Below are positions 1 to 56,429 of a DNA stretch of 64,000 bases, piece by piece. The first letter of the stretch is position 1; the number at the start of each line of letters is the position of its first letter. The notes beneath the pieces are model-generated. The model ran no database searches and had not been told where the DNA came from. It saw nothing but the letters and a program-made list of their open reading frames with translations. Source of the DNA: a bacterium (GTDB taxonomy: Bacteria > Patescibacteriota > Patescibacteriia > UBA9570); NCBI GenBank assembly GCA_030698395.1, contig JAUYKW010000025.1:4179-68178 (forward strand), written 5' to 3'. A program made the position numbers and the translations under genes.

Positions 1-48
1 GATCATTGTTTAGTATAGAACATAATAATAGTACCGTATTTTATTTTG

Positions 49-122
49 TGGACGGTAGTGGATTCGAACCGCTGACCTCTTGCGTGTCGAGCAAGCGCTC
101 TAACCAACTGAGCTAACCGTCC
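49..122 (-). tRNA. tRNA-Val (anticodon GAC); atypical C at position 33 and one C·A mismatch in T-stem
   Basis: Hand-folded cloverleaf on the minus strand: acceptor GGACGGT/ACCGTCC, D-arm GCTC/GAGC, anticodon stem CTTGC/GCAAG, loop TCGACAC, T-loop TTCGAAT. Confidence 0.7.
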
Positions 123-197: not shown

Positions 198-247
198 CCT
201 CCGCCAGAGGCGGATCAGCCTTCGGCTGAAACTGAGCTAACCGTCCC
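198..247 (-). repeat. Truncated 5' copy of tRNA-Val (18 nt, to D-loop CAGTT) fused to a 32-nt twin-hairpin element (tcagccgaaggctga + tccgcctctggcgga)
   Basis: The reverse complement of 230-247 equals the first 18 nt of tRNA-Val. Two adjacent 6-bp stem hairpins follow. Downstream sequence resumes tRNA-like 'ggtta..gcttgc'. Confidence 0.8.
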
Positions 248-254
248 TTTTTTG

Positions 255-327
255 TGCTCCTAGATGGAATTGAACCATCGACCCCAGTCTTATAAGGACT
301 GTGCTCTAACCCCTGAGCTATAGGAGC
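255..327 (-). tRNA. tRNA-Ile (anticodon UAU, reads AUA)
   Basis: Cloverleaf: acceptor GCTCCTA/TAGGAGC, anticodon stem CAGTC/GACTG, loop CTTATAA, T-loop TTCAATT. Confidence 0.75.
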
Positions 328-486
328 CTGGACAGTTCCTTCGGAACTGAACAGGCAAGCTGAATTTGTAAATAACCACTGCTTGTCTGTTCAATTACGA
401 ACAAAGTGAGTAATTGTCCAGAAGCTATAGGAGCTTATAATGTGATGTATATATTAGCAGACCAAGAAAATTGAACAAGTGTCTAC

Positions 487-3364: not shown

Positions 3365-4540
3365 TTATTCTTTAACTGTTTCTTCTTTTGGCTCCTCAAC
3401 TACAGCCACTTCTTCAATTGCTGGAGCTTCCTTTGGTGTCTCATGTAATGCTTTATAAGATAATCCCAATCTATGCTGATTTGGTTCGATAGAAATTATT
3501 TTAAATTCATAAGTTTTTCCTTCTTGAACTACTTCAGTAGGACTAGACAATTTTTTATATGAAAGCTCAGAAATATGTGCTAACCCATGAATCTCTGTAT
3601 CTAATTCCACAAATGCTCCAAAAGGATTAACTTTTAGAACAATACCTTCTACAGTATCACCAATATTATATTTTTTAGTGATAATCTGCCATGGATCAGT
3701 TTCTAGATTTCTAATACTTAATGAAATTTTAGAATCATCAATACTGATAATTTGAGCTTTCACATCCTGTCCAATACTTACAAAGTCAGATGGATTATCA
3801 ATTCTCTGCCATGCAATTTCAGATATATGTACTAATCCTTCTAGACCATCTCCAAATTCAATAAATGCCCCAAAGTCCACCACACCAGTTACTTTACCTT
3901 CAACTACATCGTTTACCTTGTACTGAGAGATCTTTTGCTGTTGTTGTTCAGCTTTAGCTAATTTTTCTGAAACTATTAATTTATTTTCAATTTCATCTAC
4001 ATCAATCACTTTTACTTGAAAAGCCTCAGATACATAATCTTTTAGCTTCTCTAAAATTCTACTCTTATTACCGCCTTCTACTCTTGGATAATGTTCAACC
4101 GACAATTGTGATACTGGTAAAAAACCAGATACATTTCCAACGCGGATAATTAAACCTCCTTTATTTGCGTCTAAGATATGTGCATCAACAACACTTTGTC
4201 CATGCATTAACTCTTTTAATGACTTCCATGCTTTATCATGACCAGCCTGCTGGAATGATAATTCTACTTCACCATTTTCATTTTCTACTTCAACTACACT
4301 TGCAGTTGCTTCATCACCTACCTTTAAATTTGAATATTCTCCAGATTCATCAAATAATTCTGGACCTCTTACTACTCCAGATGCATAACCTCCGATATCT
4401 AAATGAACTTCATTTTTTGAAGCTAAGATAACTTTACCTGTAATTATATCTCCTTGATTCGGAATAGCTATTTCACTATTATCCGCCAAGAGCTGAGCCA
4501 TGACGCTCTGTGTATCAGCCTTTTGGGTTAAATTGGCCAT
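3365..4540 (-). CDS. rpsA: 30S ribosomal protein S1 (multiple S1 domains)
   Basis: Repeated S1 RNA-binding motifs (G..V.G.V..V.DFGAFVE..G.EGLVHISE). Confidence 0.8.
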   Translation of the reverse strand: MANLTQKADTQSVMAQLLADNSEIAIPNQGDIITGKVILASKNEVHLDIGGYASGVVRGPELFDESGEYSNLKVGDEATASVVEVENENGEVELSFQQAGHDKAWKSLKELMHGQSVVDAHILDANKGGLIIRVGNVSGFLPVSQLSVEHYPRVEGGNKSRILEKLKDYVSEAFQVKVIDVDEIENKLIVSEKLAKAEQQQQKISQYKVNDVVEGKVTGVVDFGAFIEFGDGLEGLVHISEIAWQRIDNPSDFVSIGQDVKAQIISIDDSKISLSIRNLETDPWQIITKKYNIGDTVEGIVLKVNPFGAFVELDTEIHGLAHISELSYKKLSSPTEVVQEGKTYEFKIISIEPNQHRLGLSYKALHETPKEAPAIEEVAVVEEPKEETVKE

Positions 4541-4666: not shown

Positions 4667-5230
4667 ATGACTAGAACAACACTCGATGGAGCAAAATTTA
4701 GAAAGATGGTGATGAAAGCCACTGGTACTAAGGGCTATCTATCTTCATCTGTATCAAAATCTATTCAATCGTCTGGTTCAAAGAAATTCATGCAATCTGG
4801 TGCCAAAGTATCAAAACGCGACGCAACTAAAGTAATTAAGCAATTGAAAGAGGAGGGTTTAGCTCACAAAGTAACATCAAATGCTACAAAATACGTCGGT
4901 ACTGCGTACGCAAAGGAAGAACGGCGCAAAGAATCGATAAAAAAGATGAATATCTCCGAACGTCAAAAAGAGATTTCTGCAGAGAAAGCTGCCGAACAAA
5001 ACGGCAAAATGGCAACCACAAAAACAAAATCATCTGGCGGACAAGGTGCAACCCATCTTCAACAAGCTTCGAGCATGCCCTCAAGTAGTGGGGGAAATAC
5101 TGATAGTTTCGTTGGATCAATTTACGGCAAAACAAATATCAAACCTCAAAGTGAACTTCCAACTCCTGTAGAAAAACCACAAGAATGGAAAGATGAAGAA
5201 GAAAATTTAATTGATCTAGCTATTGATTAG
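4667..5230 (+). CDS. hypothetical Lys/Ser-rich low-complexity protein
   Basis: 187-aa ORF; no recognisable domain. Confidence 0.4.
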   Translation: MTRTTLDGAKFRKMVMKATGTKGYLSSSVSKSIQSSGSKKFMQSGAKVSKRDATKVIKQLKEEGLAHKVTSNATKYVGTAYAKEERRKESIKKMNISERQKEISAEKAAEQNGKMATTKTKSSGGQGATHLQQASSMPSSSGGNTDSFVGSIYGKTNIKPQSELPTPVEKPQEWKDEEENLIDLAID

Positions 5231-19107: not shown

Positions 19108-20597
<1,490 letters not shown>

Positions 20598-20718
20598 TAA
20601 GGAGTATTACGGTGTACAAATCCTGATTTATTTCAGGAAACACTAGTCGTTCGTTCAGTTTGATCTTCAAACTGTTCGAAGGTGAATTCCTTATCACAAT
20701 TCAGTCGTAAATAAAAAA

Positions 20719-20745
20719 ATCTCGGGTCAAACCGAGATTTTTTAT
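20719..20745. terminator. hairpin terminator (atctcgg..ccgagat) flanked by A- and T-runs, ~120 nt after the 16S 3' end
   Basis: Seen in the sequence; a convergent protein gene follows instead of a 23S gene. Confidence 0.7.
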
Positions 20746-20754
20746 TATCTATAT

Positions 20755-21501
20755 TTAGATTAAACTCTCTGCTAGAGTGCGAAAATAGCGTCGCTTAAAA
20801 TTACTCCTATATTTTCTTGAATATACTGATCGTACCTTTAACTTATACCTACTATCCCCCTTTAAACCAGTTATTGTAACTCCCGTTTTATCTTTACGTA
20901 ATCCTTTTTTTACATTCTTCGAAAACACAACTTTATTCTTCTTCTTTACCACAACTTTATAATGGGTTAGCAAGCGACTTCTTTTTACATTCTTCCACGA
21001 TGCATAAACTGAATTAGTTTTTTTGTTACTTACATTAATTTCATTCGGACGTTTTGGAGAAGTTCGAAATGATTTATAGAGAGACCAACTTGTTGTTTCA
21101 CCATCTGTAGCTACAGCTCTCACTTTAAATTTATAAGATCTATTTCTTTGCAAATCCTGAATTGATATACGTTTTCGTTCTGTTGTAATTCCTGTCCACT
21201 CCTGAACTAACGCTCCATTTATCCGGCGCAATTGGACTTCATAATAATCTAATTGATCACCTGATTCACAGCCTGTAAAACTAGTTTGATTCCAGCGCAA
21301 GGCAATTTTGTTCTTTAAGTTTGATTTTGTTAAACGCTTTGCATTTAATCCTGATACGTCATTTGCAGTACATGCTACATAACCATATCCATAGCCAGCA
21401 TAAACACCATATGAACCAAATATAACAGGTGCGAGCATTAAGGATAATACCACAACTACTAGTGATAAAATACTGATATTCTTTTTCTGCTCTTCTCTCA
21501 T
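20755..21501 (-). CDS. secreted/membrane-anchored protein with FN3-like repeats and a Lys/Arg-rich C-terminal tail
   Basis: N-terminal TM/signal; YKFKVRAV..TSW-type FN3 pattern; basic tail. Confidence 0.5.
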   Translation of the reverse strand: MREEQKKNISILSLVVVVLSLMLAPVIFGSYGVYAGYGYGYVACTANDVSGLNAKRLTKSNLKNKIALRWNQTSFTGCESGDQLDYYEVQLRRINGALVQEWTGITTERKRISIQDLQRNRSYKFKVRAVATDGETTSWSLYKSFRTSPKRPNEINVSNKKTNSVYASWKNVKRSRLLTHYKVVVKKKNKVVFSKNVKKGLRKDKTGVTITGLKGDSRYKLKVRSVYSRKYRSNFKRRYFRTLAESLI

Positions 21502-21524
21502 AACATAACTAGCCTACCAAATTA

Positions 21525-22964
21525 CTATAATCGATACAAGATTAATTCGGACCAGGGGCCAGAATCTGTACGATAAACTTGTTTTGATTCTTCTATCATT
21601 TCTAAAAGTGAATTACTTAATCTATATTTTGCTAATGTATCAATTAGTACATAGACATTTTTTTCACCAATATTCATCTTTTCAAACGTCTCTGCATCAA
21701 TATACTCTACTCCGGTATAGATCTCCCTCTCTGGCATAATATCGTCTCTACCAGTTGGATCAACATACAATGAATAATCATCTAAATTCGTTGAATATAG
21801 CCGTGTAATGGCTGGATAAGGCGTAATTAGAGCATCTACTTGTTGATTGCTTAAGAATTCATATGCAGATTTAAAATCCGGCTGTGGTGTAAAACTTTTA
21901 TAACTTAAATAGCTATCATTGGAATCAGATTCCAATGCATAATTTGATTGTGGTAAGAATACAAAACCAGAATAGGCAACTGTAAATATCACTACCACCG
22001 CCCATCCTAAATATGATCTACTCAATAACCAATCTACAGCTACTGCAGTCAACATAACTACCGCAGGAAATAGAAAGAATAGGTATCGATAATGTAAAAG
22101 TGGTACAGCATAACTAAGCACACCAAATCCAACAAGGAAAATTGCACTCAACCATAAGGCCTGTTCTACCTTACCTCGTTTAATTAATAACCAAATCCCA
22201 AATACAGCTAAAATTATTAATGCCAATTGTTCATTCATAATATAGTTGGAATAATGATTCCAATAATTTACTAATGGACCATTGTAAAAAAATATTCTCA
22301 CCAAAATAACAGAACTTATTATCATACCAAGTATGGTACTAACAAAAATTGTCACCAAGTATCCAGGTTTTAAAGAACTATTAAACAATTTTTTAATAAC
22401 AACTAAAAGGATAAAAGCAAAGATAACTAAATAACCAAATTGATGAGTCATTATTGTTAATATTGTAATTATCATCATCCAAATCAATAATTTTTTCTTC
22501 CCCTGTAACCAACAATCATATAAAAATAAAGCTAGCCAAAACAGCAATTGCAATAGCATGTACATTCTTACCTGCCGTGACCAAGCTATCTCCCAATAAG
22601 AAAAACTCATAACAACGAATGTAATTATGGCAACGCGATTTGAAAACCAATATTTGGCAATAATAGATATTACAATAATAGTAGCTATACCTAACAATAC
22701 TGACAGTAATCTACCGGCCAATATTGCATCACCTCTAAAATAAGTAGCGCCAGCAAGCAAAAAATGATACATCGGGGAACGCCAAACAACCTCTCCTGAA
22801 CCTGCTAACGGATATCCTTGTTCAACAATATCCTGAGCTATCGCTAAAGAATAAGCCTCATCCATCCAAACTGACTGATCCGAAATATAATATAACCTTA
22901 AGAAAATTGCCCAAAATAGCACTAGCGCTAGCCCAATAATTATTAATTTCTTTTTCATCACCAT
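21525..22964 (-). CDS. GT-C fold glycosyltransferase (family 39/83, PMT/ArnT-like)
   Basis: Multi-TM protein with an N-terminal loop 'WMDEAYS' DE motif. Start placed at MVMKKKL; the ORF extends to 23030. Confidence 0.7.
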   Translation of the reverse strand: MVMKKKLIIIGLALVLFWAIFLRLYYISDQSVWMDEAYSLAIAQDIVEQGYPLAGSGEVVWRSPMYHFLLAGATYFRGDAILAGRLLSVLLGIATIIVISIIAKYWFSNRVAIITFVVMSFSYWEIAWSRQVRMYMLLQLLFWLALFLYDCWLQGKKKLLIWMMIITILTIMTHQFGYLVIFAFILLVVIKKLFNSSLKPGYLVTIFVSTILGMIISSVILVRIFFYNGPLVNYWNHYSNYIMNEQLALIILAVFGIWLLIKRGKVEQALWLSAIFLVGFGVLSYAVPLLHYRYLFFLFPAVVMLTAVAVDWLLSRSYLGWAVVVIFTVAYSGFVFLPQSNYALESDSNDSYLSYKSFTPQPDFKSAYEFLSNQQVDALITPYPAITRLYSTNLDDYSLYVDPTGRDDIMPEREIYTGVEYIDAETFEKMNIGEKNVYVLIDTLAKYRLSNSLLEMIEESKQVYRTDSGPWSELILYRL

Positions 22965-23110
22965 AATCATAGCATCTCTTGCGAAAATTAGAATTTTTGA
23001 TATACTATCGAAGCATATTTGAGATAACACCTATCCAATATGTGTCCGAACGATTTGATTTTCAAATCGAACAGACCTGTTCAATTTTGACTTTTGTAAA
23101 AATTGTCCAG

Positions 23111-23187
23111 GGGTGTGTAGCTCAGGTGGTTAGAGCGCAGTCCTGATAAGACTGAGGTCCCTGGTTCGAGTCCAGGCATACCCACCA
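23111..23187 (+). tRNA. tRNA-Ile (anticodon GAU), CCA encoded
   Basis: Cloverleaf with anticodon loop CTGATAA. Confidence 0.9.
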
Positions 23188-23190
23188 GAA

Positions 23191-23265
23191 GCCGAGGTAG
23201 CTCAGTGGTAGAGCAGTGGACTGAAAATCCTCGTGTCGGGAGTTCAATTCTCCCCCTCGGCACCA
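23191..23265 (+). tRNA. tRNA-Phe (anticodon GAA), CCA encoded
   Basis: Cloverleaf with anticodon loop CTGAAAA; one U·U mismatch in the anticodon stem. Confidence 0.85.
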
Positions 23266-23274
23266 GCAAAAATA

Positions 23275-23426
23275 AAAACAAAAGAGAAATACAATTAAAG
23301 CCACTATCGGGGATTGGCGCAGTTTCCGCCAAAGGCGGATCAGCCTATGGCTGAGGCTAGAACCAATGTCTGAATAAAAACAAAAGAGAAATACAATTCA
23401 AGCCACTATCGGGGATTGGCGCAGTT
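23275..23426 (+). repeat. ~50-bp direct repeat (35 nt upstream flank + first 17 nt of tRNA-Pro) flanking a 51-bp insert that begins with the twin-hairpin element in inverted orientation
   Basis: The copies at 23275-23324 and 23376-23426 differ by 1 nt. The insert tccgccaaaggcggatcagcctatggctgagg sits exactly after 'gcgcagtt' of the truncated tRNA-Pro copy. Confidence 0.85.
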
Positions 23427-23483
23427 GGCTAGCGCGCGCCGTTTGGGACGGTGAGGCCCCGGGTTCGAGTCCCGGATCCCCGA
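23410..23483 (+). tRNA. tRNA-Pro (anticodon UGG)
   Basis: Acceptor CGGGGAT/ATCCCCG, anticodon loop TTTGGGA, T-loop TTCGAGT. Confidence 0.85.
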
Positions 23484-25117
23484 CCCTTTAGGAAAGCAGC
23501 TGATTTCTTATGGTCAAGCAAAATATTAAACGGTTCTTTGGCCTGAAAATCCAATACTTTTTTGTTTTTAATAGTAAAGTTCAAGAACATATTTTGGAGT
23601 ATTGTATCTAATAGCTTCATATCTCTAGTTTGAGCAATAATATCAGGCATTTTTTGAAAAAGTTCGAGAAACTCCTTTTGAGAAAAAATAAAACTTTTGG
23701 AATCATTCAAAATATTATTAATTGCATCTAGTCTAATTTCTAGCTCCTCAATTTTTTGAAGAGTAAGTTTATAATCAAGTTTAAAAGCTAGCTTTACTTT
23801 TTCATCTGTTTCATTTAAAAGTAATTGTTTTACTTGGTCTAAACTTTTTCTTTTGATATTCAATTTTTGAACTACGCTAGATTTTTCACTTGTTAACTCC
23901 TGTGCCTTAGCCTTGATTACAGTATTCATCTGATTCAAGTAAATTTTATAATTATGCTTAGTTGCCAGTTTATTTTTCCTAATAAGCTGAATAACAAAAT
24001 CAACAATCACTTTTGCTCTTATAGACTTATTATGAAAATTACATTTCTTGTTTTCACACCTGTAATAATAATATCCTTTCTTAGAGCCATTCTTTAAGTA
24101 TTTATAGGTAATACCTGAAGAAAATGGAAAATTACACACACCACACACAACTCTGCCGCGCAATAAATCTGCGCTTGTATATTTTTTTGACCTAAGTTGT
24201 GATGTAACTTTAAAACCTTTAGTTAGATCACTAATTTTATTGATCCTTAAAAAATCGATAACTGAAACGGCAGGGATAAAATCACATTTATCAGTTAGAT
24301 CAACAATACTATCTGCACCATATATTAAAACTCCCGTATAAAAGGGATCTCTCAATATTTCTGATAAACGTGATTTATTCATTTCATATAACTTACCAAG
24401 ATGTTGGTAACTGTTACTATTAATATAAAGAATGATGTCATTTAATGTTTTGCCATTCAATTTCATTTGAAAGGCTTGTTTGATTAGTACGAAATTATTT
24501 CCATTTGGATGATGAAATTGGGCAGCATCTTTATAATATCCATGCTTAGCCGTATTAATATATTTACCTTCGGCAATACTTCTTTTATTACCACGTTTTA
24601 CATTGTCACTTAATTGATCTGAATATTGTTTGGACAATACAAACGCCATTCCTAATAACATCTTCCCAGAGGCCGTATTTTCGAAGCTAAAGCTCTTAAA
24701 CTTCAAATCACGAATAACTCCCTTATCAAGTAAATCAATCAGCTCACCAGCCTCTTTCATATTGCGTGCTAATCTATCGGGATGCCAGGCAATAATTGCA
24801 TCGTATCTGCCCGCTTTGATGCGATCTACCATCTCTCTGAACTGAGGCCGTATATCCGGATCCTTGGCTGATTCAGACTCTCTATAAACCTTTACAACAT
24901 TTAAGCCCAGCTGCTGAGATAATTCTTCACATTCTGCGACTTGATCTGCCAACGACCGAGCCTGACGCTCTTCTCCTTCAGTAGATTTACGAACATATAA
25001 AATATATTTCAACAAGTCTGCCTCCTGCTGTGGTTCAATTAACATTCTATACAATAAATCGGTAAATTCTTGTGGGGTGCTTATTGAAGCACTTAAGTTG
25101 GATTGTTTATTGCTCAT
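23429..25117 (-). CDS. large serine recombinase (resolvase domain + recombinase domain + zinc ribbon); 3' end overlaps tRNA-Pro
   Basis: YILYVRKSTEGEERQARSLADQ catalytic-Ser motif, DRLARN, C-terminal CGVCNFPF...YYYRCENKKC; 562 aa. Confidence 0.85.
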   Translation of the reverse strand: MSNKQSNLSASISTPQEFTDLLYRMLIEPQQEADLLKYILYVRKSTEGEERQARSLADQVAECEELSQQLGLNVVKVYRESESAKDPDIRPQFREMVDRIKAGRYDAIIAWHPDRLARNMKEAGELIDLLDKGVIRDLKFKSFSFENTASGKMLLGMAFVLSKQYSDQLSDNVKRGNKRSIAEGKYINTAKHGYYKDAAQFHHPNGNNFVLIKQAFQMKLNGKTLNDIILYINSNSYQHLGKLYEMNKSRLSEILRDPFYTGVLIYGADSIVDLTDKCDFIPAVSVIDFLRINKISDLTKGFKVTSQLRSKKYTSADLLRGRVVCGVCNFPFSSGITYKYLKNGSKKGYYYYRCENKKCNFHNKSIRAKVIVDFVIQLIRKNKLATKHNYKIYLNQMNTVIKAKAQELTSEKSSVVQKLNIKRKSLDQVKQLLLNETDEKVKLAFKLDYKLTLQKIEELEIRLDAINNILNDSKSFIFSQKEFLELFQKMPDIIAQTRDMKLLDTILQNMFLNFTIKNKKVLDFQAKEPFNILLDHKKSAAFLKGRGSGTRTRGLTVPNGAR

Positions 25118-37124: not shown

Positions 37125-37388
37125 TTGAGCGTCCACTTAATTACTAATGGACGTTTTATGTTTTATACTTACATTCTACGAAGTCTGATCGATCAACGAA
37201 CTTACGTTGGTCATACAAATAATATTAAAAATAGAGTAAATAGACATAATTCTGTCTTGGTTAAGTCTACTAAAACAAGATGTCCTCTTAAACTAATCTA
37301 TCTAGAACAACATTCTACATTACAAAAAGCTAAACCTCCCGTATTCGACACTCATCTTTGGATATGCAACGGAATAACTCTTTCGTAA
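37125..37388 (+). CDS. GIY-YIG nuclease-domain protein (YhbQ/UPF0213-like), divergent C-terminus
   Basis: FYTYILRS...RTYVGHTNNIKNRVNRHN matches the GIY-YIG core. The likely start is the internal Met at 37158. Confidence 0.65.
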   Translation: MSVHLITNGRFMFYTYILRSLIDQRTYVGHTNNIKNRVNRHNSVLVKSTKTRCPLKLIYLEQHSTLQKAKPPVFDTHLWICNGITLS

Positions 37389-43003: not shown

Positions 43004-43580
43004 TATTTTTTCTACTTGCCAACTCTTTAAGTATTTGTTGCCATGATACATCACGTTGTACCAGTAGCACAAGTAGGTGATATATAACGTCAGTGACCTC
43101 TTCAATTACACGTTTTTTTGATTCCTGTAATGCAGCCATTGTCACTTCTGATGATTCCTCAATAACTTTTGCACAAATTTCTTCTGTACCTGCATTAAAT
43201 AATGAAGCGGTATACGAACCAATTGGTAACTCAACCTTGCGATTTAATAGTAACTGAAACAGTTCATCTATAATGTTAGCAGTAGAATTACCAAAACATG
43301 ACATATTACCTGTATGACATACAGAACCAGCCGGCTTAACTTTTATCAATATAGCATCTTGATCACAATCTGGATTAATAGTTACAACATCTAAAACATT
43401 ACCGCTAACTTCACCTTTCATCCATAATCTTTCTTTGGATCGACTATAAAACCATACTTGCCCAGTTTCTATAGTTTTATCAAGAGCTATCTTATTCATA
43501 TATCCCAGCATTAACACTTCTCCAGTAATATCGTTCTGGATAATAGCTGGTATTAATCTTTTATTAAAATCTATATTCAT
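42963..43580 (-). CDS. hisIE: bifunctional phosphoribosyl-AMP cyclohydrolase / phosphoribosyl-ATP pyrophosphatase
   Basis: [18 protein letters not shown]...[10 protein letters not shown]...CHTG (HisI) plus a C-terminal HisE-like helical domain. Confidence 0.85.
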
Positions 43581-45061
43581 ATTCTTACTTTTATGTTATT
43601 AGCTAACAAATACTTTTTTAATCGCTGTATATCTATTCCTCTGGAATGAAACACACTAGCTGCTAAAGCTGCGTCCACATCGGTTCTACTAAAAACATCT
43701 AAGAAGTCTCCTGATTTTCCAACTCCACTTGATGCAATTATTGGAATATTTACAGCCGTGCTAATTGTTTGCATTAGCGCCAAATCGTATCCTTGCTTAG
43801 TGCCATCACGATCTAAAGAATTTACTAATAACTCACCCGCACCTAGACGCTCCATTTTTCTGGCAAATTTAATCGCATCTATACCCGTAGCCTCTCTACC
43901 ACCCTTTATATATATCTCCCAACTATCACCAACTTGTTTTGAGTCAATCGATATTACAATACACTGAGTACCAAATCTCTCTGCTGCTTGCTTCACAAAA
44001 TCCGAATTAGTTACAGCTGTAGATCCAATAGAAACTTTATCAGCACCAAATTTTAATAATCTGCCAATATCTTCAAGAATTCTAATGCCCCCTCCTACGG
44101 TAAATGGAATATTAATCTGTGCTGCCACTTTTTCTACCAACTCATATAGTGTTAATCGATTTTCAATCGTAGCTGTAATATCAAGGAACACCAATTCATC
44201 AGCGCCTTTGTTAGAATACAACTTGGCTAACTCCACTGGATCACCAGCATCTTGTAATTGTTTAAAGTTAATTCCTTTTACAACGCGTCCATCTGCAATA
44301 TCCATACAAGGAATGATTCTTTTAGTTAAATTACTCACAGCATCTTTCCTAAACGAATCAGCCTCAAGTTGAAACTGAGAAATTCTACCTTCATATATAG
44401 CTTTACCAATAATTACTCCATCCAAACCTGCTTGTTCGCATCTCTGGATATCTACATCATTTGCTACACCCCCGGCAATCATCACCTTCATGTTGCCAAT
44501 CTCCGCTCTGCGCACTAATTCTATATTTGGTCCTGCTAACATGCCGTCTTTTGATACGTCGGTAATTATCAACTCACGTACACCTAGCATATAAATTCTC
44601 TTAACGGCTTGATTTAGCGAAAGCTCTGAACTGTCCATCCATCCCTCAATAACTACTTCATCCTCCTTTATATCTAAAGATACAACTATTCTTTCAGCGC
44701 CGTATTTTTTAAGCAAGCGTGCAACTAACTCAGGCTGTTTGATTGCTGCTGTTCCAATTATTATCCGATCCACTCTATTATCAAGATACTGTTGAGCAGT
44801 CCGCAAATCACGAACACCACCTCCAACTTGCACTGGAATTGACAATATATCAACAATCTCACAAATTAGATCAGCATTTATTGATCGTCCGAGTCTAGCT
44901 CCATCTAAATCAATTATGTGAATCATTGTTGCACCTTGTTGTTCAAAACTCTTTGCTATTCGAATGGGATCATCAAAATATTTTTTCTTGCAATTATAAT
45001 TGCCTTGCGTTAATCGTACACATTTACCATCTATTAAATCTATTGCTGGAATTACTTTCAT
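43577..45061 (-). CDS. HisA-HisF fusion: ProFAR isomerase fused to imidazole glycerol phosphate synthase cyclase subunit
   Basis: N-terminal [22 protein letters not shown] (HisA) and a second (beta-alpha)8 half beginning [16 protein letters not shown]...[12 protein letters not shown] (HisF), in one 494-aa ORF. Confidence 0.8.
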
Positions 45062-45636
45062 AAATTTAGAAAATTATTTAATAACTGTTGCCCCACACTG
45101 CCAGATTTCTCGGGATGGAACTGAACCCCAAAATAATTATCTTGCTTAATTACTGCTGAGAAATGCTTACCATATAATGTTGATCCTATTGTTTTGCTAA
45201 TTACCGGAACATAATATGAATGTACAAAATAGAAATAGCTTTTATTTGGTATATCAGAAAACAACGGATCATCATTTATTTCTGCTACAACATTCCAGCC
45301 AATCTGCGGCACCTTTAAGCTAGTAAATTTTTTAGTACTTCCTTTTATAATACCCAAACATTCAATCTCATCTTCAGCTGAAGATTGCATTAATAATTGC
45401 ATACCCAAACAAATTCCAAGTAATGGCTGTTTCAATTCACGAATAACCCAAACTAAATCTAGCTCCTGCAATTCTTTCATAGCTGGCTTAGCACGACCGA
45501 CTCCTGGCAGAATTACTTTGTCTGCTTGCCGGATGCTGTCCGGATCAGCGGTAATAATGTACTGCTGACCCAGACGATCCAATGCTGCTGACAACGAAGC
45601 AATGTTTCCTGATTTATAGTCTATAATTGCAATCAT
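45058..45636 (-). CDS. hisH: imidazole glycerol phosphate synthase, glutamine amidotransferase subunit
   Basis: MIAIIDYKSGN, GICLGMQ and HPE triad motifs. Confidence 0.9.
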   Translation of the reverse strand: MIAIIDYKSGNIASLSAALDRLGQQYIITADPDSIRQADKVILPGVGRAKPAMKELQELDLVWVIRELKQPLLGICLGMQLLMQSSAEDEIECLGIIKGSTKKFTSLKVPQIGWNVVAEINDDPLFSDIPNKSYFYFVHSYYVPVISKTIGSTLYGKHFSAVIKQDNYFGVQFHPEKSGSVGQQLLNNFLNL

Positions 45637-45665
45637 ATTTTCATGGTACGGTCAATCGACCGCAC

Positions 45666-46259
45666 TTACAGTTTATTTTTAGTTGAAGGTAACTGATTTT
45701 TAGCTCGTTCTTCTATTTCACAAGCTTCACGCAAAGCTCGAGCAAACGATTTAAAGATAGCTTCTAATCTATGATGTTCATTCCTGCCAGAATTCAAAAA
45801 CTGAATGTGTAAATTCATTTTTGCCTCGAGCGCAACTTGTTGCATAAAATGCCATAACATTTCAGTTGGAAAATCATTAACTTTTTCTCGCACTGGCTGA
45901 TAATTATCTTCATAAGCAAATCTTCCTGCCAAATCCACTGCTGTTAAACACAATACCTCGTCCATCGGCAATATTTGAGAGCCATAACGCTTAATGCCCT
46001 TCTTATTGCCAATTGCTTTATTAATTGCTTGTCCTAACACTATTCCAACGTCCTCAATAATGTGATGATCATCATACTCAACATCTCCTGTTGCCTTAAT
46101 AGTCAGGTCAAATAAGCCATGCTTGGAGAATAGCTCTAACATATGGTTAAAAAAACCAATCGGTGTATCTATTTGATATTTTCCGATGCCATCTAAATCC
46201 AACTCCAATTTAATTTGGGTTTCTTTAGTGGTGCGTTCAATTTTTGCTGTTCTGCTCAT
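45666..46259 (-). CDS. hisB: imidazoleglycerol-phosphate dehydratase
   Basis: RTAKIERTTKETQI...DDHHIIED motifs. Confidence 0.9.
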   Translation of the reverse strand: MSRTAKIERTTKETQIKLELDLDGIGKYQIDTPIGFFNHMLELFSKHGLFDLTIKATGDVEYDDHHIIEDVGIVLGQAINKAIGNKKGIKRYGSQILPMDEVLCLTAVDLAGRFAYEDNYQPVREKVNDFPTEMLWHFMQQVALEAKMNLHIQFLNSGRNEHHRLEAIFKSFARALREACEIEERAKNQLPSTKNKL

Positions 46260-46741
46260 AGTGGTAATCTATTTATATTCATAGGTGAGTTGGTTTCTGT
46301 TTTAATAAATTTTATTTTTAAGTTTTTAGCAAACTCTCCATCCGATTCCCGATCACCATACATGAATGATCTTTCTTCATCGATCTCATTGTCCTTTATC
46401 CATTCTTCCACCAAACCAAGCTTTGGCTTTCTACAAACACAACTATCTCTGAGGAAGTGCGGACATATAAATATCTCTGCAAATTCAATTTTATTCTCTA
46501 AAAAAATTTCCAACATTCTATTTTGCGGAACCAAAAATTTTTCTTCTGGAAATGAATCAGTACCTCTACCATCTTGATTTGATATCATCACTAACTTAAA
46601 TCCAACCGTAATTAATTTCTGCAATCCATCAATTACACCATTTAAAATTTTTAGCTTTTTCAAACTATCAATTTGATAATCATCTTGGGGTTCAAAAATC
46701 AATGCTCCATCTCGATCTAAAAATGCATATGCTTGTTTCAT
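46256..46741 (-). CDS. HAD-IIIA family phosphatase (histidinol-phosphatase-type)
   Basis: AFLDRDG HAD motif I; sits inside the his operon. Confidence 0.7.
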   Translation of the reverse strand: MKQAYAFLDRDGALIFEPQDDYQIDSLKKLKILNGVIDGLQKLITVGFKLVMISNQDGRGTDSFPEEKFLVPQNRMLEIFLENKIEFAEIFICPHFLRDSCVCRKPKLGLVEEWIKDNEIDEERSFMYGDRESDGEFAKNLKIKFIKTETNSPMNINRLPL

Positions 46742-47796
46742 AATATTTTCTCTTTATATATTTCAATAAATTTTGTCATTTGTTCTTTAGTACCTATCGT
46801 CACTCGTAATGTACTATCAATGTTTACGCCTTTTCGTGGACGAATGAGAAATCCATATTTTTTGAGTTTCTCAAACGTCTCCATGGGATTGTTTGGCCGA
46901 AATAATATAAAGTTACCAGCACTCTGATGCCACTGAATCTTATTTTTTGTAAAGAACTGTTCTACCATTAGCTTGGCTTCTGTCATAACTTCCTGCACAT
47001 ACGCTTTAACATTATCTATATCATCCAGCGCAGCTCGAGCCGCATAATAACCAGCCATATTCACATCATATGGCCCTCGCACCTTTATTAGTTCAGCAAC
47101 ATTTTCACAGTTTCCAACCACATAGCCGATACGCAAACCCCCTAAACCAAAGGCTTTTGAAAAAGTTCGTACACAAATAATGTTCGGGTATTTTTTTGTT
47201 AATTCTATAGCAGAAACTCCAGAAAATTCTGCGTATACTTCATCAACCAATACCATTGTTTGAGGATTAGCTAAAACAATTTCTTCAATCTGCTGTATAG
47301 AAGCTAATGAACCAGTTGGATTATTAGGATTGCAAATAACGATTAATGCAGTATCATTATTAATTTTATTAATAATTTCTTTTACAGGAAATGATAAATC
47401 TTTTCGATAAGGTATTTCAATAATTTTATTACCAACAACACCAGCACATTGATAAAACATTGCGAAGCTAGGAGATGGAATTATTACTTGATCACCCTTT
47501 TCTGTATATGTTCGAAATATCAATTCAATCCCTTGATCTGCTCCATTTGTAAGCATCACCATTTCGTTTTCCACGCCAATATACTCTGCGATCTTTTCTT
47601 CTAGATCAAAGTATTCAGGATACACTTGTAATTTATCCTGAGACACAAATTTCTTTAGCGCTTCTATTACAGCATCACTTGGCGAGATAGTGCGCTCATT
47701 GAAATCCAATAACACTCCATCATAAGCCGCCCTACCAGCCAACGGTGGTTGGTAGGGTTTTATCTTTTGAATATTTTTATTAGCTAGATTTTTCAT
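46738..47796 (-). CDS. hisC: histidinol-phosphate aminotransferase
   Basis: Class II aminotransferase fold with KAFGLGGLRIGY (PLP-Lys). Start set at MKNLANK; the ORF extends to 47877 and overlaps hisD. Confidence 0.85.
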   Translation of the reverse strand: MKNLANKNIQKIKPYQPPLAGRAAYDGVLLDFNERTISPSDAVIEALKKFVSQDKLQVYPEYFDLEEKIAEYIGVENEMVMLTNGADQGIELIFRTYTEKGDQVIIPSPSFAMFYQCAGVVGNKIIEIPYRKDLSFPVKEIINKINNDTALIVICNPNNPTGSLASIQQIEEIVLANPQTMVLVDEVYAEFSGVSAIELTKKYPNIICVRTFSKAFGLGGLRIGYVVGNCENVAELIKVRGPYDVNMAGYYAARAALDDIDNVKAYVQEVMTEAKLMVEQFFTKNKIQWHQSAGNFILFRPNNPMETFEKLKKYGFLIRPRKGVNIDSTLRVTIGTKEQMTKFIEIYKEKIL

Positions 47797-47803
47797 AATG
47801 TTA

Positions 47804-49105
47804 TTAATTATTTTCGAAACGAACTGAGCATGAATATTTATGTGCTGGCAATTGTTCAACCTCTGCAAATATTTCAATGCTCTGCCGAATTTCTGTAAGT
47901 CCTTTTACTGTAACTTGTTGATACTCAACTGCCTTCATAAAATCGTATATTGATAAGCTAGAAAACATTTTAGCAGCTCCACCTGTTGGCAACACATGAT
48001 TTGCACCAGTCGCATAATCTCCAGCAGATTTACAAGCATACTCTCCAATAAACACTGAACCTGCATTAGTAACTTGTTCTGCTATATTGGATGCATCTTT
48101 TGTTGATATTAAAATATGTTCCGCAGCGTATTCATTTGCAAATTCAAGTGCCTTTTTCATGTTTTTTGCAACTATAATTGCTCCAAATTTCTCTAAAGAT
48201 TCCTTTATTCTTTGCTGAGTAGTAAACCGAGGTATTATTCGCTCTAATTCCTCAGCAACTTGCTCTGCCAAAACTGAAGATGTTGTTACTAACACAGCCG
48301 CAGAGTCATTACCATGTTCAGCATCACAAACTAAGTCTGCGGCTACATACTTCGGATTCGCTGTTTCATCAGCTAATACCAATACTTCTGATGGACCAGC
48401 TGGTGAATCAATAGCAACCTCACCGTTCGCTGCAGCTAATTGCTTTGCAGCGACGACATATGTATTTCCGGGGCCAAATATCTTATACACCTTAGGCATG
48501 CTCTCAGTTCCATAAATTAATGCTGCAATAGCTTGGGCCCCTCCAATTTTATATATCTCTTTCACTCCGACCAAATCTGCCGCCACTAAAACATACGGAG
48601 ATATCGAGCCATCATTTTGAGGTGGAGTAGTCATCACTATCTGTTTGCAATCCGCCACTTTTGCTGGAATGGCATTCATCAACACTGATGATGGATATAC
48701 CGCATTACCGCCCGGTACGTATAAACCAACTTTTTCAATTGGTTTCCATTCCTGCCAAACAGTTATACCGCTACGAGGCATAACAGTAGTATGTTTCATT
48801 TGTAATAACTGCTGTTCAGCAACTCCTCTGATATTACGACTAGCTACTTCCAGTGCTTTTAAAAAATCCGCATTAACTAGTTCATATGCTATTTTTATTT
48901 CCTTATCACTTACTCGAAAATTTGAAATATCAATGTTATCAAAATCTTTTGTATATTTCCTTAAAGCTTGATCACCATCACGCTTAACATTATCTAAAAT
49001 ATCTTGCACGACTGACAATACAGAATCATAACTAAATCTACTTCGCTGCATAATAACTTGATAGCGATCGGATTTTATAAATTGGTCAAAAGTTTGTACT
49101 TTCAT
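47804..49105 (-). CDS. hisD: histidinol dehydrogenase
   Basis: 433 aa; conserved HisD core (GPGNTYVVAAK, CDAEHG region). Confidence 0.9.
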   Translation of the reverse strand: MKVQTFDQFIKSDRYQVIMQRSRFSYDSVLSVVQDILDNVKRDGDQALRKYTKDFDNIDISNFRVSDKEIKIAYELVNADFLKALEVASRNIRGVAEQQLLQMKHTTVMPRSGITVWQEWKPIEKVGLYVPGGNAVYPSSVLMNAIPAKVADCKQIVMTTPPQNDGSISPYVLVAADLVGVKEIYKIGGAQAIAALIYGTESMPKVYKIFGPGNTYVVAAKQLAAANGEVAIDSPAGPSEVLVLADETANPKYVAADLVCDAEHGNDSAAVLVTTSSVLAEQVAEELERIIPRFTTQQRIKESLEKFGAIIVAKNMKKALEFANEYAAEHILISTKDASNIAEQVTNAGSVFIGEYACKSAGDYATGANHVLPTGGAAKMFSSLSIYDFMKAVEYQQVTVKGLTEIRQSIEIFAEVEQLPAHKYSCSVRFENN

Positions 49106-53041: not shown

Positions 53042-54577
53042 TTACCCCAAACTCTTTCTTAACTTTCCAGCCTTTAATATGGCAATTGAAATATCTTTAC
53101 GCTGACGTGATAGATAGTAAATATCTGAAGTTGTATTACGATGTAAGAAATGGTTAGTATTTTTTGGTTCTAGAGTAGTACCAAAATAATCTTGGATAAA
53201 TTCAATATCTTCTTTAATTTCTCTCCAGGCTTTACTTCGTTTCGCAAACTGATCCAAGTTTTCAGTATTCAAATAATGGCCAGCTCGTTTAATATCATGT
53301 TCCATATAGCGATAAACCTCATGTACAATTTCGCCTTCACCTTTACTTAGAGATCGCAATGTTTTACCAATACCAATTAATTCTGGAGGAACACCCAATG
53401 AATACATAGCAGCAGTAAATGTAATTGCGCGCGGAAATTCTTTCTTGCCAATAGATCTGCTATACCCCAATAATCCAATATGCAATCTCCGCTCTCGTCG
53501 TCGTGGAATAAATGGCGTAATCCTAAACATATCATTCGATATACCAGTAATAGATTCTCTATACTGACGCTCGGCACGTCTCACTATTGTATGTAAAATT
53601 TCTTTATCCCGCTCTGAAAAAATTCGTGGCTTACTATTTGGTAATTCTCTTTGTAATGTTTTAATTGCTGACTTCACCTGCTTTAATGGATAATCATATC
53701 GAAATGCTGATTGTACAGTTACAGTACTAACACCCTGATATTCTCCAATAAATTCTTTAATATGATCCGGTGAACATGATCCACGAAATGGTAACGAACC
53801 AGTACCAATTATAGGATAAACACGAATGCTACGCTTCTTACCCCATTGATACATTTCAGATAAAGCAATTTTGTTTGCAATCACTGCAGGCAAAAGTCCG
53901 GCTAACAAAGCTGGATCGCTACGAGCCAAAAACGGCCTGATGTAAGGAATGTCTTTTTTATAATACTTTTTATGAGCTCGACTATAAGTCTCCAGTAACT
54001 TAGCAATATTAAACATATCATCAACACCTTCAACTAATGGAATTACCTCTATATAATTGAAAGACTTAGTTTTATCTGTAAATAACTCATGCTTAACTTT
54101 TGCTAACTTGGTGAAAGTTTCTTGAATATGCAACAACTGCTCCGCTGATGTCGTCATTGGAAGGATAACTTCAAACAATGGATTTGATTTCATACCTAAA
54201 TCATGAGCTAAATCTGATGCTGTTAACATAGCCATAAATGCTCTAGCTAAAGAGTAACCCTTTTCTTCCCAAATATTAGGAATGCGAAAAGTTAAAAATT
54301 TATCTATGCCAATTAAGTTCTTCTGAAAGTAATCGTAGTATTCAGTCATTAATCGTTCTACAACAGCTTCGTCAACGTACTTTCCTTCCCAATCCCACAT
54401 GTATTCATCCACTCCCAAATCTTTAAAAGCAGATGCAGCCTCAGCTACTTCTTCTTGCGCGGAAACAAAGCCATCACCGTCCTTTTCCCAGAAAGGAGCA
54501 GAGGCATTATCCGGATGTTGTGTCGCCATTACGGCAGGAATTTTTCTCATACCAGTGTATTGTACAGGTATTGACAA
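53042..54577 (-). CDS. ppcA: archaeal-type phosphoenolpyruvate carboxylase
   Basis: N-terminal MATQHPDN motif and ~510-aa length characteristic of the archaeal-type PEPC family. Confidence 0.75.
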   Translation of the reverse strand: MSIPVQYTGMRKIPAVMATQHPDNASAPFWEKDGDGFVSAQEEVAEAASAFKDLGVDEYMWDWEGKYVDEAVVERLMTEYYDYFQKNLIGIDKFLTFRIPNIWEEKGYSLARAFMAMLTASDLAHDLGMKSNPLFEVILPMTTSAEQLLHIQETFTKLAKVKHELFTDKTKSFNYIEVIPLVEGVDDMFNIAKLLETYSRAHKKYYKKDIPYIRPFLARSDPALLAGLLPAVIANKIALSEMYQWGKKRSIRVYPIIGTGSLPFRGSCSPDHIKEFIGEYQGVSTVTVQSAFRYDYPLKQVKSAIKTLQRELPNSKPRIFSERDKEILHTIVRRAERQYRESITGISNDMFRITPFIPRRRERRLHIGLLGYSRSIGKKEFPRAITFTAAMYSLGVPPELIGIGKTLRSLSKGEGEIVHEVYRYMEHDIKRAGHYLNTENLDQFAKRSKAWREIKEDIEFIQDYFGTTLEPKNTNHFLHRNTTSDIYYLSRQRKDISIAILKAGKLRKSLG

Positions 54578-56035: not shown

Positions 56036-56187
56036 CAATTGTAATATGTCCGAACAACGGGACAAAATTCAAAACAACATACTCTCCACAACGTCCAGAA
56101 AACATTTACGGAGGCAAATGATACCAGTTAGAAGTAATATAATTTACGATTGACAGGCTAAAATAACTTGGATATTATACCTCCTAC

Positions 56188-56353
56188 GCGGGGATAGCTC
56201 AGTTTCAGCCAAAGGCTGATCCGCCTACGGCGGAGGATAGAGCCCTTACCTACGATAGTCTATTTATAATGCGGGGATAGCTCAGTTTCAGCCAAAGGCT
56301 GATCCGCCTACGGCGGAGGATAGAGCCCTTACCTACGATAGTCTATTTATAAT
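56188..56353 (+). repeat. two tandem 83-bp units, each = first 17 nt of tRNA-Gly(GCC) + 32-nt twin-hairpin element + degenerate D-arm-like tail
   Basis: Units 56188-56270 and 56271-56353 are identical. The insert follows 'gctcagtt' and the tail begins ggatagagc (compare native ggtagagcg). Confidence 0.9.
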
Positions 56354-56429
56354 GCGGGGATAGCTCAGTTGGTAGAGCGTCTGCTTGCCATGCAGAAGGT
56401 CGCGAGTTCGAATCTCGTTTCCCGCTCCA
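56354..56429 (+). tRNA. tRNA-Gly (anticodon GCC), CCA encoded
   Basis: Cloverleaf with anticodon loop TTGCCAT. Confidence 0.9.

What the first reader, a model, noticed from the sequence alone, without database searches (positions are those of the whole stretch)
23275..23483. The same twin-hairpin element, inverted and with stem identities swapped, sits in a duplicated tRNA-Pro 5' end
Here the element reads tccgccaaaggcgga+tcagcctatggctga. It is the reverse-complement orientation of the copies at tRNA-Val and tRNA-Gly, with different loop sequences but both 6-bp stems conserved, which suggests selection on structure. It is flanked by a 50-bp direct repeat (35 nt of upstream flank plus the first 17 nt of tRNA-Pro, 1 mismatch). 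The truncated copy again continues with 'ggctag', the native D-loop continuation, after the insert. Occurrence in both orientations argues for a mobile or invertible palindromic unit rather than a leader-specific motif.
Basis: seen in the sequence. Interest (0 to 1): 0.75.

Follow-up and report, generated by a model that had tools for sequence, protein, structure and literature searches.

The report
Tiny twin-hairpin jumping DNA element
A 30-base piece of selfish DNA that folds into two small hairpins has landed in a dead, duplicated front end of a proline tRNA gene. The same element is scattered through many bacterial phyla, even in frame inside essential protein genes, and I found no published description of it.

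Summary
Window 23325-23354 reads TCCGCCaaaGGCGGA+TCAGCCtatGGCTGA. It sits exactly between nt 17 and 18 of a truncated 5' copy of tRNA-Pro, inside a 54-nt direct repeat (37 nt flank + 17 nt tRNA, 1 mismatch).

It is not a leader motif. It belongs to a 30-nt family, TC[M]GCC-NNA-GGC[K]GA|TC[M]GCC-TNN-GGC[K]GA, found in at least 120 genome loci, about half of them Patescibacteria/CPR. In 142 copies M and K always pair within each hairpin. The loops vary, and the two stem types assort independently, so "inverted" has little meaning.

It inserts as exactly 30 nt with no target duplication. About a quarter of copies lie in frame in proteins as SAxGGSAxGG, and close orthologues have empty sites. A relative's Ile-Phe-Pro locus and two relatives' Ile-Val loci lack both remnant and hairpin.

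Copies are strongly enriched in loops of disabled tRNA copies that sit next to an intact gene, often beside small GIY-YIG nuclease genes (none at the window loci).

Best reading: a non-autonomous, RPE/REP-like mobile palindrome parked in a dead tRNA remnant, with no function here. The mobilising enzyme and the reason for the tRNA-loop bias are unknown.

The parts
23271..23324 (+). Direct-repeat copy 1: 37 nt of upstream flank plus tRNA-Pro nt 1-17. This is the 5' part of the dead tRNA-Pro remnant.
   Evidence: 54 nt, 98% identical to 23373-23426.
23325..23354 (.). The 30-nt twin-hairpin element, TCCGCCaaaGGCGGA | TCAGCCtatGGCTGA, inserted between tRNA positions 17 and 18 (the D-loop alpha variable region).
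   Evidence: family anatomy.
23355..23360 (+). 'ggctag': continuation of the remnant (tRNA-Pro nt 18-22/23). It shows that the hairpin is a precise insertion inside the remnant.
   Evidence: compared with the intact gene at 23426-23431.
23361..23372 (+). 12-nt filler 'aaccaatgtctg' of unknown origin between the remnant and repeat copy 2.
   Evidence: no match to the tRNA or its flanks.
23373..23426 (+). Direct-repeat copy 2: flank plus the first 17-18 nt of the working gene. It serves as an internal 'empty site'.
23409..23486 (+). Intact tRNA-Pro(tgg).
   Evidence: Rfam tRNA, 61 bits.
200..229 (.). Sister twin hairpin in a tRNA-Val(gac) 5' remnant. The remnant covers 230-247 on the - strand and continues at 195-199. 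The intact tRNA-Val is at 48-122 (-).
   Evidence: The remnant is absent from the orthologous loci L258 and L259.
56188..56353 (+). Two identical 83-nt units. Each is tRNA-Gly(gcc) nt 1-17, a twin hairpin (56205-56234 and 56288-56317) and a decayed rest of the tRNA. They lie upstream of the intact tRNA-Gly at 56354-56429.
   Evidence: (period 83, 2.2 copies, 100% identity).
423..434 (-). 12-nt 5' remnant of tRNA-Ile(tat) without a twin hairpin. This is the fourth of the window's eight tRNAs with an upstream 5' remnant.
   Evidence: Relative L259 has a longer Ile(tat) remnant there with a different GC-rich hairpin in the D loop.

Best explanation
The 30 bases at 23325-23354 are one copy of a non-autonomous, DNA-level insertion element made only of two adjacent perfect hairpins (6-bp stem, 3-nt loop). 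The family is widespread in Patescibacteria/CPR and several other, mostly uncultivated, phyla.

The element enters DNA as an exact 30-nt block without duplicating the target, preferentially at TTY^RAA-like sites. Because 30 is a multiple of 3 and one frame reads Ser-Ala-x-Gly-Gly twice, it survives inside protein genes as a flexible 10-residue loop. This resembles Rickettsia palindromic elements.

At this locus it sits in the D loop (between nt 17 and 18) of a redundant, 3'-truncated copy of tRNA-Pro made by a local partial duplication. The working gene lies 54 nt downstream. Here the element is a passenger with no function for the host.

Shown: family membership, precise insertion, empty sites, stem covariation, lineage-specific presence, and enrichment in disabled tRNA copies.

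Inferred: intrastrand hairpins are what the unknown mobilising enzyme recognises, in a single-strand, hairpin-directed, no-duplication mechanism like IS200/IS605 or REP-RAYT. Also inferred: tRNA D, anticodon and T loops are hotspots whose hits are seen only in copies that are not needed.
For: **Family**
- In those loci TCCGCC (239) and TCAGCC (67) stems dwarf every other 6/3 hairpin; the next is CCCGCC with 9.
- Nearly all copies are twins.

**Anatomy and covariation**
- 142 copies give 0 mispaired M/K combinations.
- Stem types assort independently.
- Loops read NNA then TNN.

**Precise 30-nt insertion without target duplication**
- Internal paralogous empty sites at Pro, Val and Gly.
- The same in L031, L075 and L082.

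**Coding insertions**
- 51 of 142 lie in stop-free frames of at least 200 codons, 35 of them in the SAxGGSAxGG frame.
- L025 PheT has two inserts that almost all 29 nearest orthologues lack.
- The DNA alignment shows an exact 30-nt gap.

**Orthologous loci without remnant or hairpin**
- Ile-Val locus in L258 and L259.
- Ile-Phe-Pro locus in L260.
- No twin hairpin in about 75 kb of relatives' DNA.

**Not RNA, not a terminator**
- No Rfam match.
- No terminator-like site.

**tRNA bias**
- 10 of 142 copies lie in loops of disabled tRNA copies.
- The same gcagtt^ggctag site is hit in tRNA-Pro remnants of unrelated metagenome contigs L176 and L194.
- In the window, exactly the three tRNAs with GCNCAGTT^GG carry it.
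Against: - No mobilising enzyme was identified. Within about 4 kb of 133 elements no transposase family recurs.
- The general target shows no structural preference, so the more than 100-fold enrichment in tRNA remnants is not explained by the measured target rules.
- Every tRNA-Pro remnant found in 120 metagenome loci (nine loci, some related to each other) carries some GC-rich insert in the D arm, including unrelated sequences. This hints that insertion and remnant formation may be mechanistically coupled rather than independent.
- No close (species-level) relative was available to show presence/absence polymorphism at the Pro site itself.
- Loop diversity among copies within one genome is unexpectedly high for a simple copy-and-paste element.
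Confidence: 0.8

Rival explanations
1. The hairpin is part of a tRNA-gene replacement process driven by stand-alone GIY-YIG homing-type nucleases. The nuclease cuts conserved loop-coding DNA of a tRNA gene. Repair duplicates or replaces the gene, and the GC-rich hairpin marks and disables the cut site in the leftover copy, as an immunity or junction scar.
For: - The only gene family recurring next to elements is an 80-100-aa GIY-YIG ORF (PF01541).
- 6 of 11 independent tRNA-linked events have one within about 300 nt: L013, L041, L060, L075, L176 and L194.
- In L176, L194 and L075 the remnant and the intact copy differ by compensatory stem changes, so one copy is foreign or old.
- All nine tRNA-Pro remnant loci carry a D-arm insert.
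- Precedent: phage SegB, a GIY-YIG nuclease in a tRNA array, cuts inside tRNA genes at a T-loop-like motif and drives tandem tRNA amplification (PMC13096335).
Against: - None of the three window loci has a GIY-YIG gene. The only one in 64 kb is a degenerate ORF at 37125-37388, far from any element.
- About 90% of family members are nowhere near a tRNA or a GIY-YIG gene, and they insert in frame in ordinary proteins.
- The window's Pro remnant shares 36 of 37 nt of non-tRNA flank with the working copy, so it is a local duplication, not an imported cassette.
- A 2-nt staggered GIY-YIG cut would not by itself give a scar-free 30-nt insertion.
Confidence: 0.2
2. The twin hairpin is a functional RNA or DNA signal of the tRNA operon: a leader or processing site, a terminator or attenuator, or a decoy 5' half.
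For: - It lies inside a probably co-transcribed Ile-Phe-Pro cluster.
- It recurs upstream of three tRNA genes in one window.
- The hairpins are very stable.
Against: - It is absent from orthologous loci in relatives and from 120 tRNA-Pro loci that share the same first 23 nt.
- It occurs in frame inside protein genes and in AT-rich spacers in many phyla.
- The constraints are two-fold symmetric on both strands.
- No T tract or terminator and no Rfam family.
Confidence: 0.04
3. It is a recombination or inversion site used by the adjacent large serine recombinase (23429-25117, - strand), or the duplication is an att-site remnant of that recombinase's element.
For: - The recombinase gene abuts and overlaps the 3' part of tRNA-Pro.
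- The element has dyad symmetry around a central GATC.
- tRNA fragments commonly arise from integrating elements (10.1101/2022.07.05.498093).
Against: - No recombinase recurs near the other elements.
- There is no shared crossover dinucleotide at the two junctions.
- The remnant is a 5' fragment lying upstream, whereas the recombinase island lies downstream.
- The Val and Gly loci have no recombinase nearby.
- The swapped stem order is explained by independent assortment.
Confidence: 0.03
4. It is a chance palindrome within an ordinary recent tandem duplication, or an assembly artefact.
For: - The flanking repeat is a simple local duplication.
- Logan contigs of the same population break inside the repeat.
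Against: - 4 twin copies in the window against about 0 expected.
- The identical 24 specified bases occur in more than 130 independent assemblies.
- In-frame protein inserts come with orthologous empty sites.
Confidence: 0.01

Closest known systems
Rickettsia palindromic elements (RPE)
   Same: [quoted passage not shown] It has no coding capacity of its own, and its mobilising enzyme is unknown. (Properties of RPEs are from my own knowledge.)
   Different: RPEs are about 100-150 bp and confined to Rickettsia. This element is 30 bp, consists only of two 15-nt hairpins, and is found across many phyla with invariant stems. No sequence relation was tested.
Mitochondrial double-hairpin elements (Allomyces/chytrid DHEs) and yeast mitochondrial GC clusters
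   Same: Very short GC-rich elements in AT-rich genomes that fold into two adjacent hairpins (DHE). They are found in spacers, RNA genes and occasionally in frame in proteins, and their mobility was inferred from presence/absence polymorphism. (Own knowledge; these appear only as citations in papers listed.)
   Different: Those elements are organellar. Their sequences and lengths differ, and GC clusters often show short target duplications. Here the host is bacterial, the length is exactly 30 nt, and there is no duplication.
REP / BIME / REPIN elements mobilised by RAYT (HUH Y1) transposases
   Same: Short bacterial palindromes whose hairpin, rather than its loop, is conserved. They are non-autonomous, multi-copy and probably mobilised as single-stranded hairpins.
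   Different: REPs carry a GTAG/CGTC tag (PMC3733652, listed), are extragenic, and cluster around a RAYT gene. Here there is no tag, about a quarter of copies are intragenic, no RAYT-like gene was seen nearby, and the two hairpins sit side by side rather than forming one long REPIN hairpin.
tRNA gene fragments left by integrating elements, and SegB-type GIY-YIG nucleases in tRNA arrays
   Same: A partial tRNA copy lies next to an intact one (10.1101/2022.07.05.498093). A GIY-YIG nuclease gene embedded among tRNA genes cuts tRNA loop-coding DNA and causes tandem duplication (PMC13096335).
   Different: At the window loci the gap between remnant and gene is only about 50-130 nt, with no integrase or nuclease gene in it. 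The remnant is the 5' part and includes host flank. The hairpin insert has no counterpart in those systems.

Membership tests
REP/REPIN (RAYT-associated) | Conserved GTAG or CGTC tetranucleotide at one end of the palindrome | tested here: not met
   Copies start TCCGCC or TCAGCC. The left flank is T-rich with no GTAG.
REP/REPIN (RAYT-associated) | Extragenic location | tested here: not met
   35-51 of 142 copies lie inside long open frames. Two are in PheT and two in an S41 peptidase.
REP/REPIN (RAYT-associated) | A RAYT (Y1 HUH) gene flanked by the repeats somewhere in the genome | tested here: inconclusive
   No recurrent transposase-like family within about 4 kb of 133 copies. Whole genomes could not be scanned.
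MITE (DDE-transposase derived) | Terminal inverted repeats | tested here: met
   The element can be read as two abutting 15-nt inverted termini, TCMGCCNNAGGCKGA and its complement.
MITE (DDE-transposase derived) | Target-site duplication of fixed length | tested here: not met
   The insertion is exactly 30 nt with no duplicated base at Pro, Val, Gly, L031, L075, L082 and PheT site 2.
IS200/IS605-type palindrome-associated elements | No target duplication; hairpins at the ends; insertion 3' of a short specific motif; TnpA in the genome | tested here: inconclusive
   No duplication and terminal hairpins: met. The left flank prefers A[T/G]TT, but the flanks are two-fold symmetric, which is unlike IS200/IS605. 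No TnpA was seen nearby.
Rickettsia palindromic elements | In-frame insertion into protein genes with empty sites in orthologues | tested here: met
Rickettsia palindromic elements | About 100-150 bp consensus families restricted to Rickettsia | tested here: not met
   The element is 30 nt. Hosts are Patescibacteria, Omnitrophota, Ignavibacteria and others.
tRNA intron (group I, or archaeal bulge-helix-bulge) | Interrupts an otherwise complete, functional tRNA gene | tested here: not met
   All carriers are truncated or decayed copies next to an intact gene. ARAGORN and Rfam call only the uninterrupted genes.
Intrinsic terminator | GC-rich hairpin followed by a T run | tested here: not met
   0 terminator-like sites in 22900-23700. 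Flanks are T-rich upstream and A-rich downstream.
CRISPR repeat | Regularly spaced identical repeats separated by unique spacers | tested here: not met
   Copies are dispersed. The only tandem pair (Gly) has identical 53-nt 'spacers'.
Serine-recombinase att/inversion site | Association with a recombinase gene and a shared crossover dinucleotide at both junctions | tested here: not met
   A recombinase is present only at the Pro locus and is not recurrent. The junctions are TT|TC and GA|GG.

The most novel reading that the evidence does not exclude
The twin hairpin and the other GC-rich hairpins seen in D loops of tRNA remnants are the visible trace of an undescribed system. That system specifically attacks loop-coding DNA of tRNA genes and is coupled to their duplication or replacement, probably with stand-alone GIY-YIG nucleases. 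It would amount to a tRNA-gene 'replacement drive' operating across CPR and other phyla, with the 30-mer as its mobile substrate or immunity mark.
Probability: 0.15. Interest if true: 0.85.

Novelty: new variant of a known kind. Interest (0 to 1): 0.68.

Why it matters
If confirmed, this would be among the smallest mobile DNA elements described (30 bp, two hairpins, nothing else). It has essentially invariant stems across many bacterial phyla, so some widespread and still unidentified enzyme must recognise a very simple structure.

It inserts 10-residue Ser/Ala/Gly loops into essential proteins of streamlined CPR genomes. That affects protein annotation, alignments and phylogenies.

It also marks disabled tRNA gene copies. 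Together with the small GIY-YIG genes, these point to unrecognised turnover of tRNA genes in these organisms. The precise, scar-free 30-nt insertion is mechanistically interesting in its own right.

Tried and rejected
1. **Insertion at the centre of palindromes or hairpin loops as the general target rule.** Flank complementarity beyond the TTY^RAA core is not above control (2.05 vs 1.90±0.10). Reconstructed empty sites are not more often in predicted hairpin loops than control TT^RA sites (29% vs 25%, p=0.36).

2. **The whole 30-mer as one long palindrome.** Loop dinucleotides are not complementary more often than chance (19 vs 17.9). AAA/TTT pairs are in fact depleted (1 vs 7.0).

3. **Loops templated by the flanks.** There is no meaningful association.

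4. **A species-level empty site at the Pro locus.** The metagenome scan returned only unrelated tRNA-Pro genes. Logan contigs of the same population end inside the repeat.

5. **Known RNA family.** None found.

6. **Literature.** Searches for the sequence core, the encoded peptides, CPR hairpin repeats and GIY-YIG/tRNA remnants gave no description of this element.

7. **Short motif CAGTTGG as a sufficient target.** Eight other copies in the window are uninterrupted.

8. **A recurrent transposase or recombinase next to elements.** None found.

Full report
**1. The observation**

Window 23325-23354 reads TCCGCCAAAGGCGGA TCAGCCTATGGCTGA. Each 15-mer pattern occurs four times in the 64-kb window, against 0.06 and 0.00 expected. 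The hairpins are always paired as twins: 200-229, 23325-23354, 56205-56234 and 56288-56317. Either strand folds into two 6-bp/3-nt hairpins (-11.3 kcal/mol, z about -4 to -5).

The flanking direct repeat is 54 nt (23271-23324 and 23373-23426, one mismatch). It consists of 37 nt of flank plus the first 17 nt of tRNA-Pro(tgg), which lies at 23409-23486. After the insert the copy continues 'ggctag' (tRNA nt 18-22/23) and then diverges. The hairpin is therefore a clean 30-nt insertion inside a 3'-truncated tRNA-Pro copy, not the duplication junction.

The same layout occurs upstream of tRNA-Val(gac) and, as two identical 83-nt units, upstream of tRNA-Gly(gcc). All four inserts sit at GCNCAGTT^GG. 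These are exactly the three tRNAs of the window that have this D loop. A fourth tRNA, Ile(tat), has a 12-nt 5' remnant without the element.

**2. It is a family, not a leader motif**

About half the loci are from Patescibacteria/CPR lineages. The rest include Omnitrophota, Ignavibacteria, Kiritimatiellae, Lentisphaerae, Planctomycetales, Elusimicrobia, Bacteroidota and MAGs labelled Gammaproteobacteria. Thirteen viral contigs also carry the element.

In those loci the two stems TCCGCC (239) and TCAGCC (67) dwarf every other 6/3 hairpin. Solo or degenerate copies are a minority.

The 142 copies give this anatomy: TC[M]GCC-NNA-GGC[K]GA | TC[M]GCC-TNN-GGC[K]GA.
- M and K pair in every one of 284 hairpins, although the pattern allowed mismatches.
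- The stem type of one hairpin is independent of the other (CC 83, CA 28, AC 27, AA 4).
- The free loop bases vary.

The element looks the same on both strands, so the 'inverted' order at tRNA-Pro needs no inversion. Flanks prefer TTY^RAA.

The host of the window is itself a Patescibacteria-like MAG. Its GyrA is identical to an NCBI 'MAG: bacterium' protein on a 141-kb contig. The nearest named relatives are Patescibacteria, Kerfeldbacteria and Komeilibacteria at 73-76% identity.

**3. It moves at the DNA level**

Wherever the uninterrupted sequence is known, exactly 30 nt were added and nothing was duplicated. This holds for the three window loci and for L031, L075 and L082.

Of the 142 copies, 51 lie in stop-free frames of at least 200 codons. 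Thirty-five of those are in the frame that reads S-A-x-G-G-S-A-x-G-G, typically as F|...|K, which corresponds to TTT^AAA.

PheT of a Campbellbacteria MAG (L025) carries two such inserts.
- Among its 29 closest orthologues (80-57% identity) nearly all lack both.
- One shares site 2 with a different loop.
- One has a decayed relic at site 1.
- One has an insert elsewhere.
- Against an 80%-identical orthologue from the same metagenome, site 2 is an exact 30-nt gap.

For the window itself, two syntenic relatives (GyrA 76% and 74%) have tRNA-Ile(tat) and tRNA-Val(gac) 46 nt and 5 nt apart, with no Val remnant and no hairpin. The window has 131 nt there. A more distant relative with the same PMT_2-fn3 / tRNA Ile-Phe-Pro arrangement has no tRNA-Pro remnant, no hairpin and no recombinase. 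About 75 kb of relatives' DNA contains no copy at all.

**4. What it is not**

- It matches no Rfam family.
- It is not a terminator.
- It is not a CRISPR repeat.
- It is not a tRNA intron, because all carriers are truncated or decayed copies beside an intact gene.
- It is not tied to the neighbouring large serine recombinase, because no recombinase recurs near other copies.

**5. The tRNA connection**

Ten of the 142 copies (four of four in the window) lie in loops of disabled tRNA copies:
- D loop: the window copies, L013 and L060.
- Anticodon loop: L031, L041 and L075.
- T loop: L082.

An intact gene is always adjacent.

Among 120 metagenome tRNA-Pro loci sharing the window's first 23 nt, nine loci (some related to each other) hold a tRNA-Pro remnant, and all nine carry an insert in the D arm:
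- L176 and L194 have twin-hairpin variants at the identical gcagtt^ggctag site.
- L154, L172 and L247 have a long hairpin with the same TCCGCC/GGCGGA stem.
- L253 has an unrelated 32-nt GC-rich hairpin.
- L178 has another hairpin insert.
- L159 and L225 have an approximately 90-nt structured insert.

The only gene family recurring beside elements is a stand-alone GIY-YIG ORF of 80-100 aa (PF01541). It lies within about 300 nt in six of eleven independent tRNA-linked events. In several of these the remnant differs from the working copy by compensatory stem changes, which means one copy was imported or is old.

There is a published precedent. The GIY-YIG nuclease SegB of T-even phages sits in a tRNA array, cuts within tRNA genes at RAWTSGAAC (a motif that resembles the T-loop consensus, by my reading) and drives tandem tRNA amplification (PMC13096335). 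Partial tRNA copies are also a known by-product of integrating elements (10.1101/2022.07.05.498093).

The three window loci, however, have no GIY-YIG gene. Only a degenerate one exists at 37125-37388. The Pro remnant also shares host flank with the working copy, so it arose by local duplication.

**6. Mechanism**

Shown:
- precise, duplication-free insertion;
- selection for, or a mechanistic guarantee of, intrastrand pairing;
- tolerance in one reading frame;
- lineage-specific gain.

Inferred:
- mobilisation through single-stranded hairpins by an unidentified trans-acting enzyme, in the style of HUH enzymes;
- a real hotspot in tRNA loop DNA, whose hits are seen only where the copy is dispensable.

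Two structural target hypotheses were tested and rejected. The tRNA bias therefore remains unexplained. The coupled GIY-YIG model is kept as the main rival, at about 0.2.

**7. Novelty and verdict**

Seven literature searches (sequence core, encoded peptides, CPR hairpin repeats, GIY-YIG with tRNA remnants) found no description of this element.

The closest known things are Rickettsia RPEs, mitochondrial double-hairpin elements and GC clusters, and REP/REPIN. It fails defining tests for REP (no GTAG tag, not extragenic) and for MITEs (no target duplication). I file it as a new variant of the known kind 'short selfish palindromic insertion elements'.

At this locus it is a passenger in a dead tRNA-Pro fragment. 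'Invertible' and the recombinase link do not.

Noticed in passing
window 23429-25117 (-): A large serine recombinase (Resolvase + Recombinase + Zn_ribbon_recom, 562 aa) whose last ~19 codons run antisense through tRNA-Pro. Relative L260 has a terminator and no recombinase after tRNA-Pro, which suggests an integrated element at the tRNA-Pro 3' end in this lineage.
   Followed up: partly
window 37125-37388 (+): A degenerate stand-alone GIY-YIG ORF (PF01541) that is not adjacent to any tRNA or twin hairpin.
   Followed up: partly
window 254-327 (-); L258 3904-3977; L259 3782-3855: A tRNA-Ile gene with anticodon TAT, conserved in three related Patescibacteria-like genomes. This is unusual for bacteria, which normally use a CAU tRNA modified by TilS (the latter from my own knowledge).
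   Followed up: no
window 19109-23111: The 16S rRNA gene is not followed by a 23S gene. Two protein genes on the opposite strand (fn3, GT39/PMT_2) lie between the 16S and tRNA-Ile(gat).
   Followed up: no
window 43577-49105 and 53042-54577: Histidine biosynthesis genes (HisA/HisF-type fusion, HisD) and an archaeal-type PEP carboxylase (PEPcase_2) in a genome whose GyrA groups with Patescibacteria. As far as I know, this group usually lacks such pathways.
   Followed up: no
L253 11437-11470; L259 ~3880-3900; L210 ~3090; L246 ~6296: A second, unrelated family of GC-rich hairpin inserts (CCTGCC...GGCAGG type). It sits in D loops of tRNA-Pro (L253) and tRNA-Ile(tat) (L259) remnants, and a similar sequence occurs next to single TCAGCC hairpins in L210 and L246.
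   Followed up: partly
L159 4590-4692 (-); L225 ~4883-4975 (+): A conserved, structured insert of about 90 nt placed after G22 of tRNA-Pro 5' remnants in two metagenome contigs. It has no Rfam match.
   Followed up: partly
L082 2040-2340: An intact tRNA-Ile(gat) flanked by 16-bp inverted repeats is nested inside an older, split tRNA-Ile whose 3' piece carries the twin hairpin in its T loop. It looks like a tRNA gene cassette inserted into a tRNA gene.
   Followed up: no
142 family copies: Loop pairs that would make the whole 30-mer a perfect palindrome of the AAA/TTT type are depleted (1 observed vs 7.0 expected), whereas CAA/TTG is enriched (6 vs 0.7). AGA/TTY and AAA/TCY are the commonest pairs.
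   Followed up: partly
L025 4441-6930 (-) and homologues P0001-P0120: PheT (phenylalanyl-tRNA synthetase beta subunit) of many CPR bacteria carries an NlpC/P60 (PF00877) domain, and some sources name it 'C40 family peptidase'.
   Followed up: no
L048 4843-7080 (+): A Saccharibacteria ValRS-like ORF with a twin-hairpin peptide near its N terminus. It also contains a stretch resembling a histidine-phosphatase motif (RHGET...) in mid-protein. This was not checked against Pfam.
   Followed up: no
window ~23046-23054 and ~56050-56058: The shared motif TGTCCGAAC lies upstream of the Ile-Phe-Pro cluster and again in the spacer between tRNA-Cys and tRNA-Gly(gcc). It may be a promoter-associated element.
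   Followed up: no
L260 4440-4470 (-): A 3' remnant of tRNA-Phe (ggatcctcgccctcgaagca) lies in the Phe-Pro spacer of a relative. This is another sign of frequent partial tRNA duplication in this lineage.
   Followed up: no
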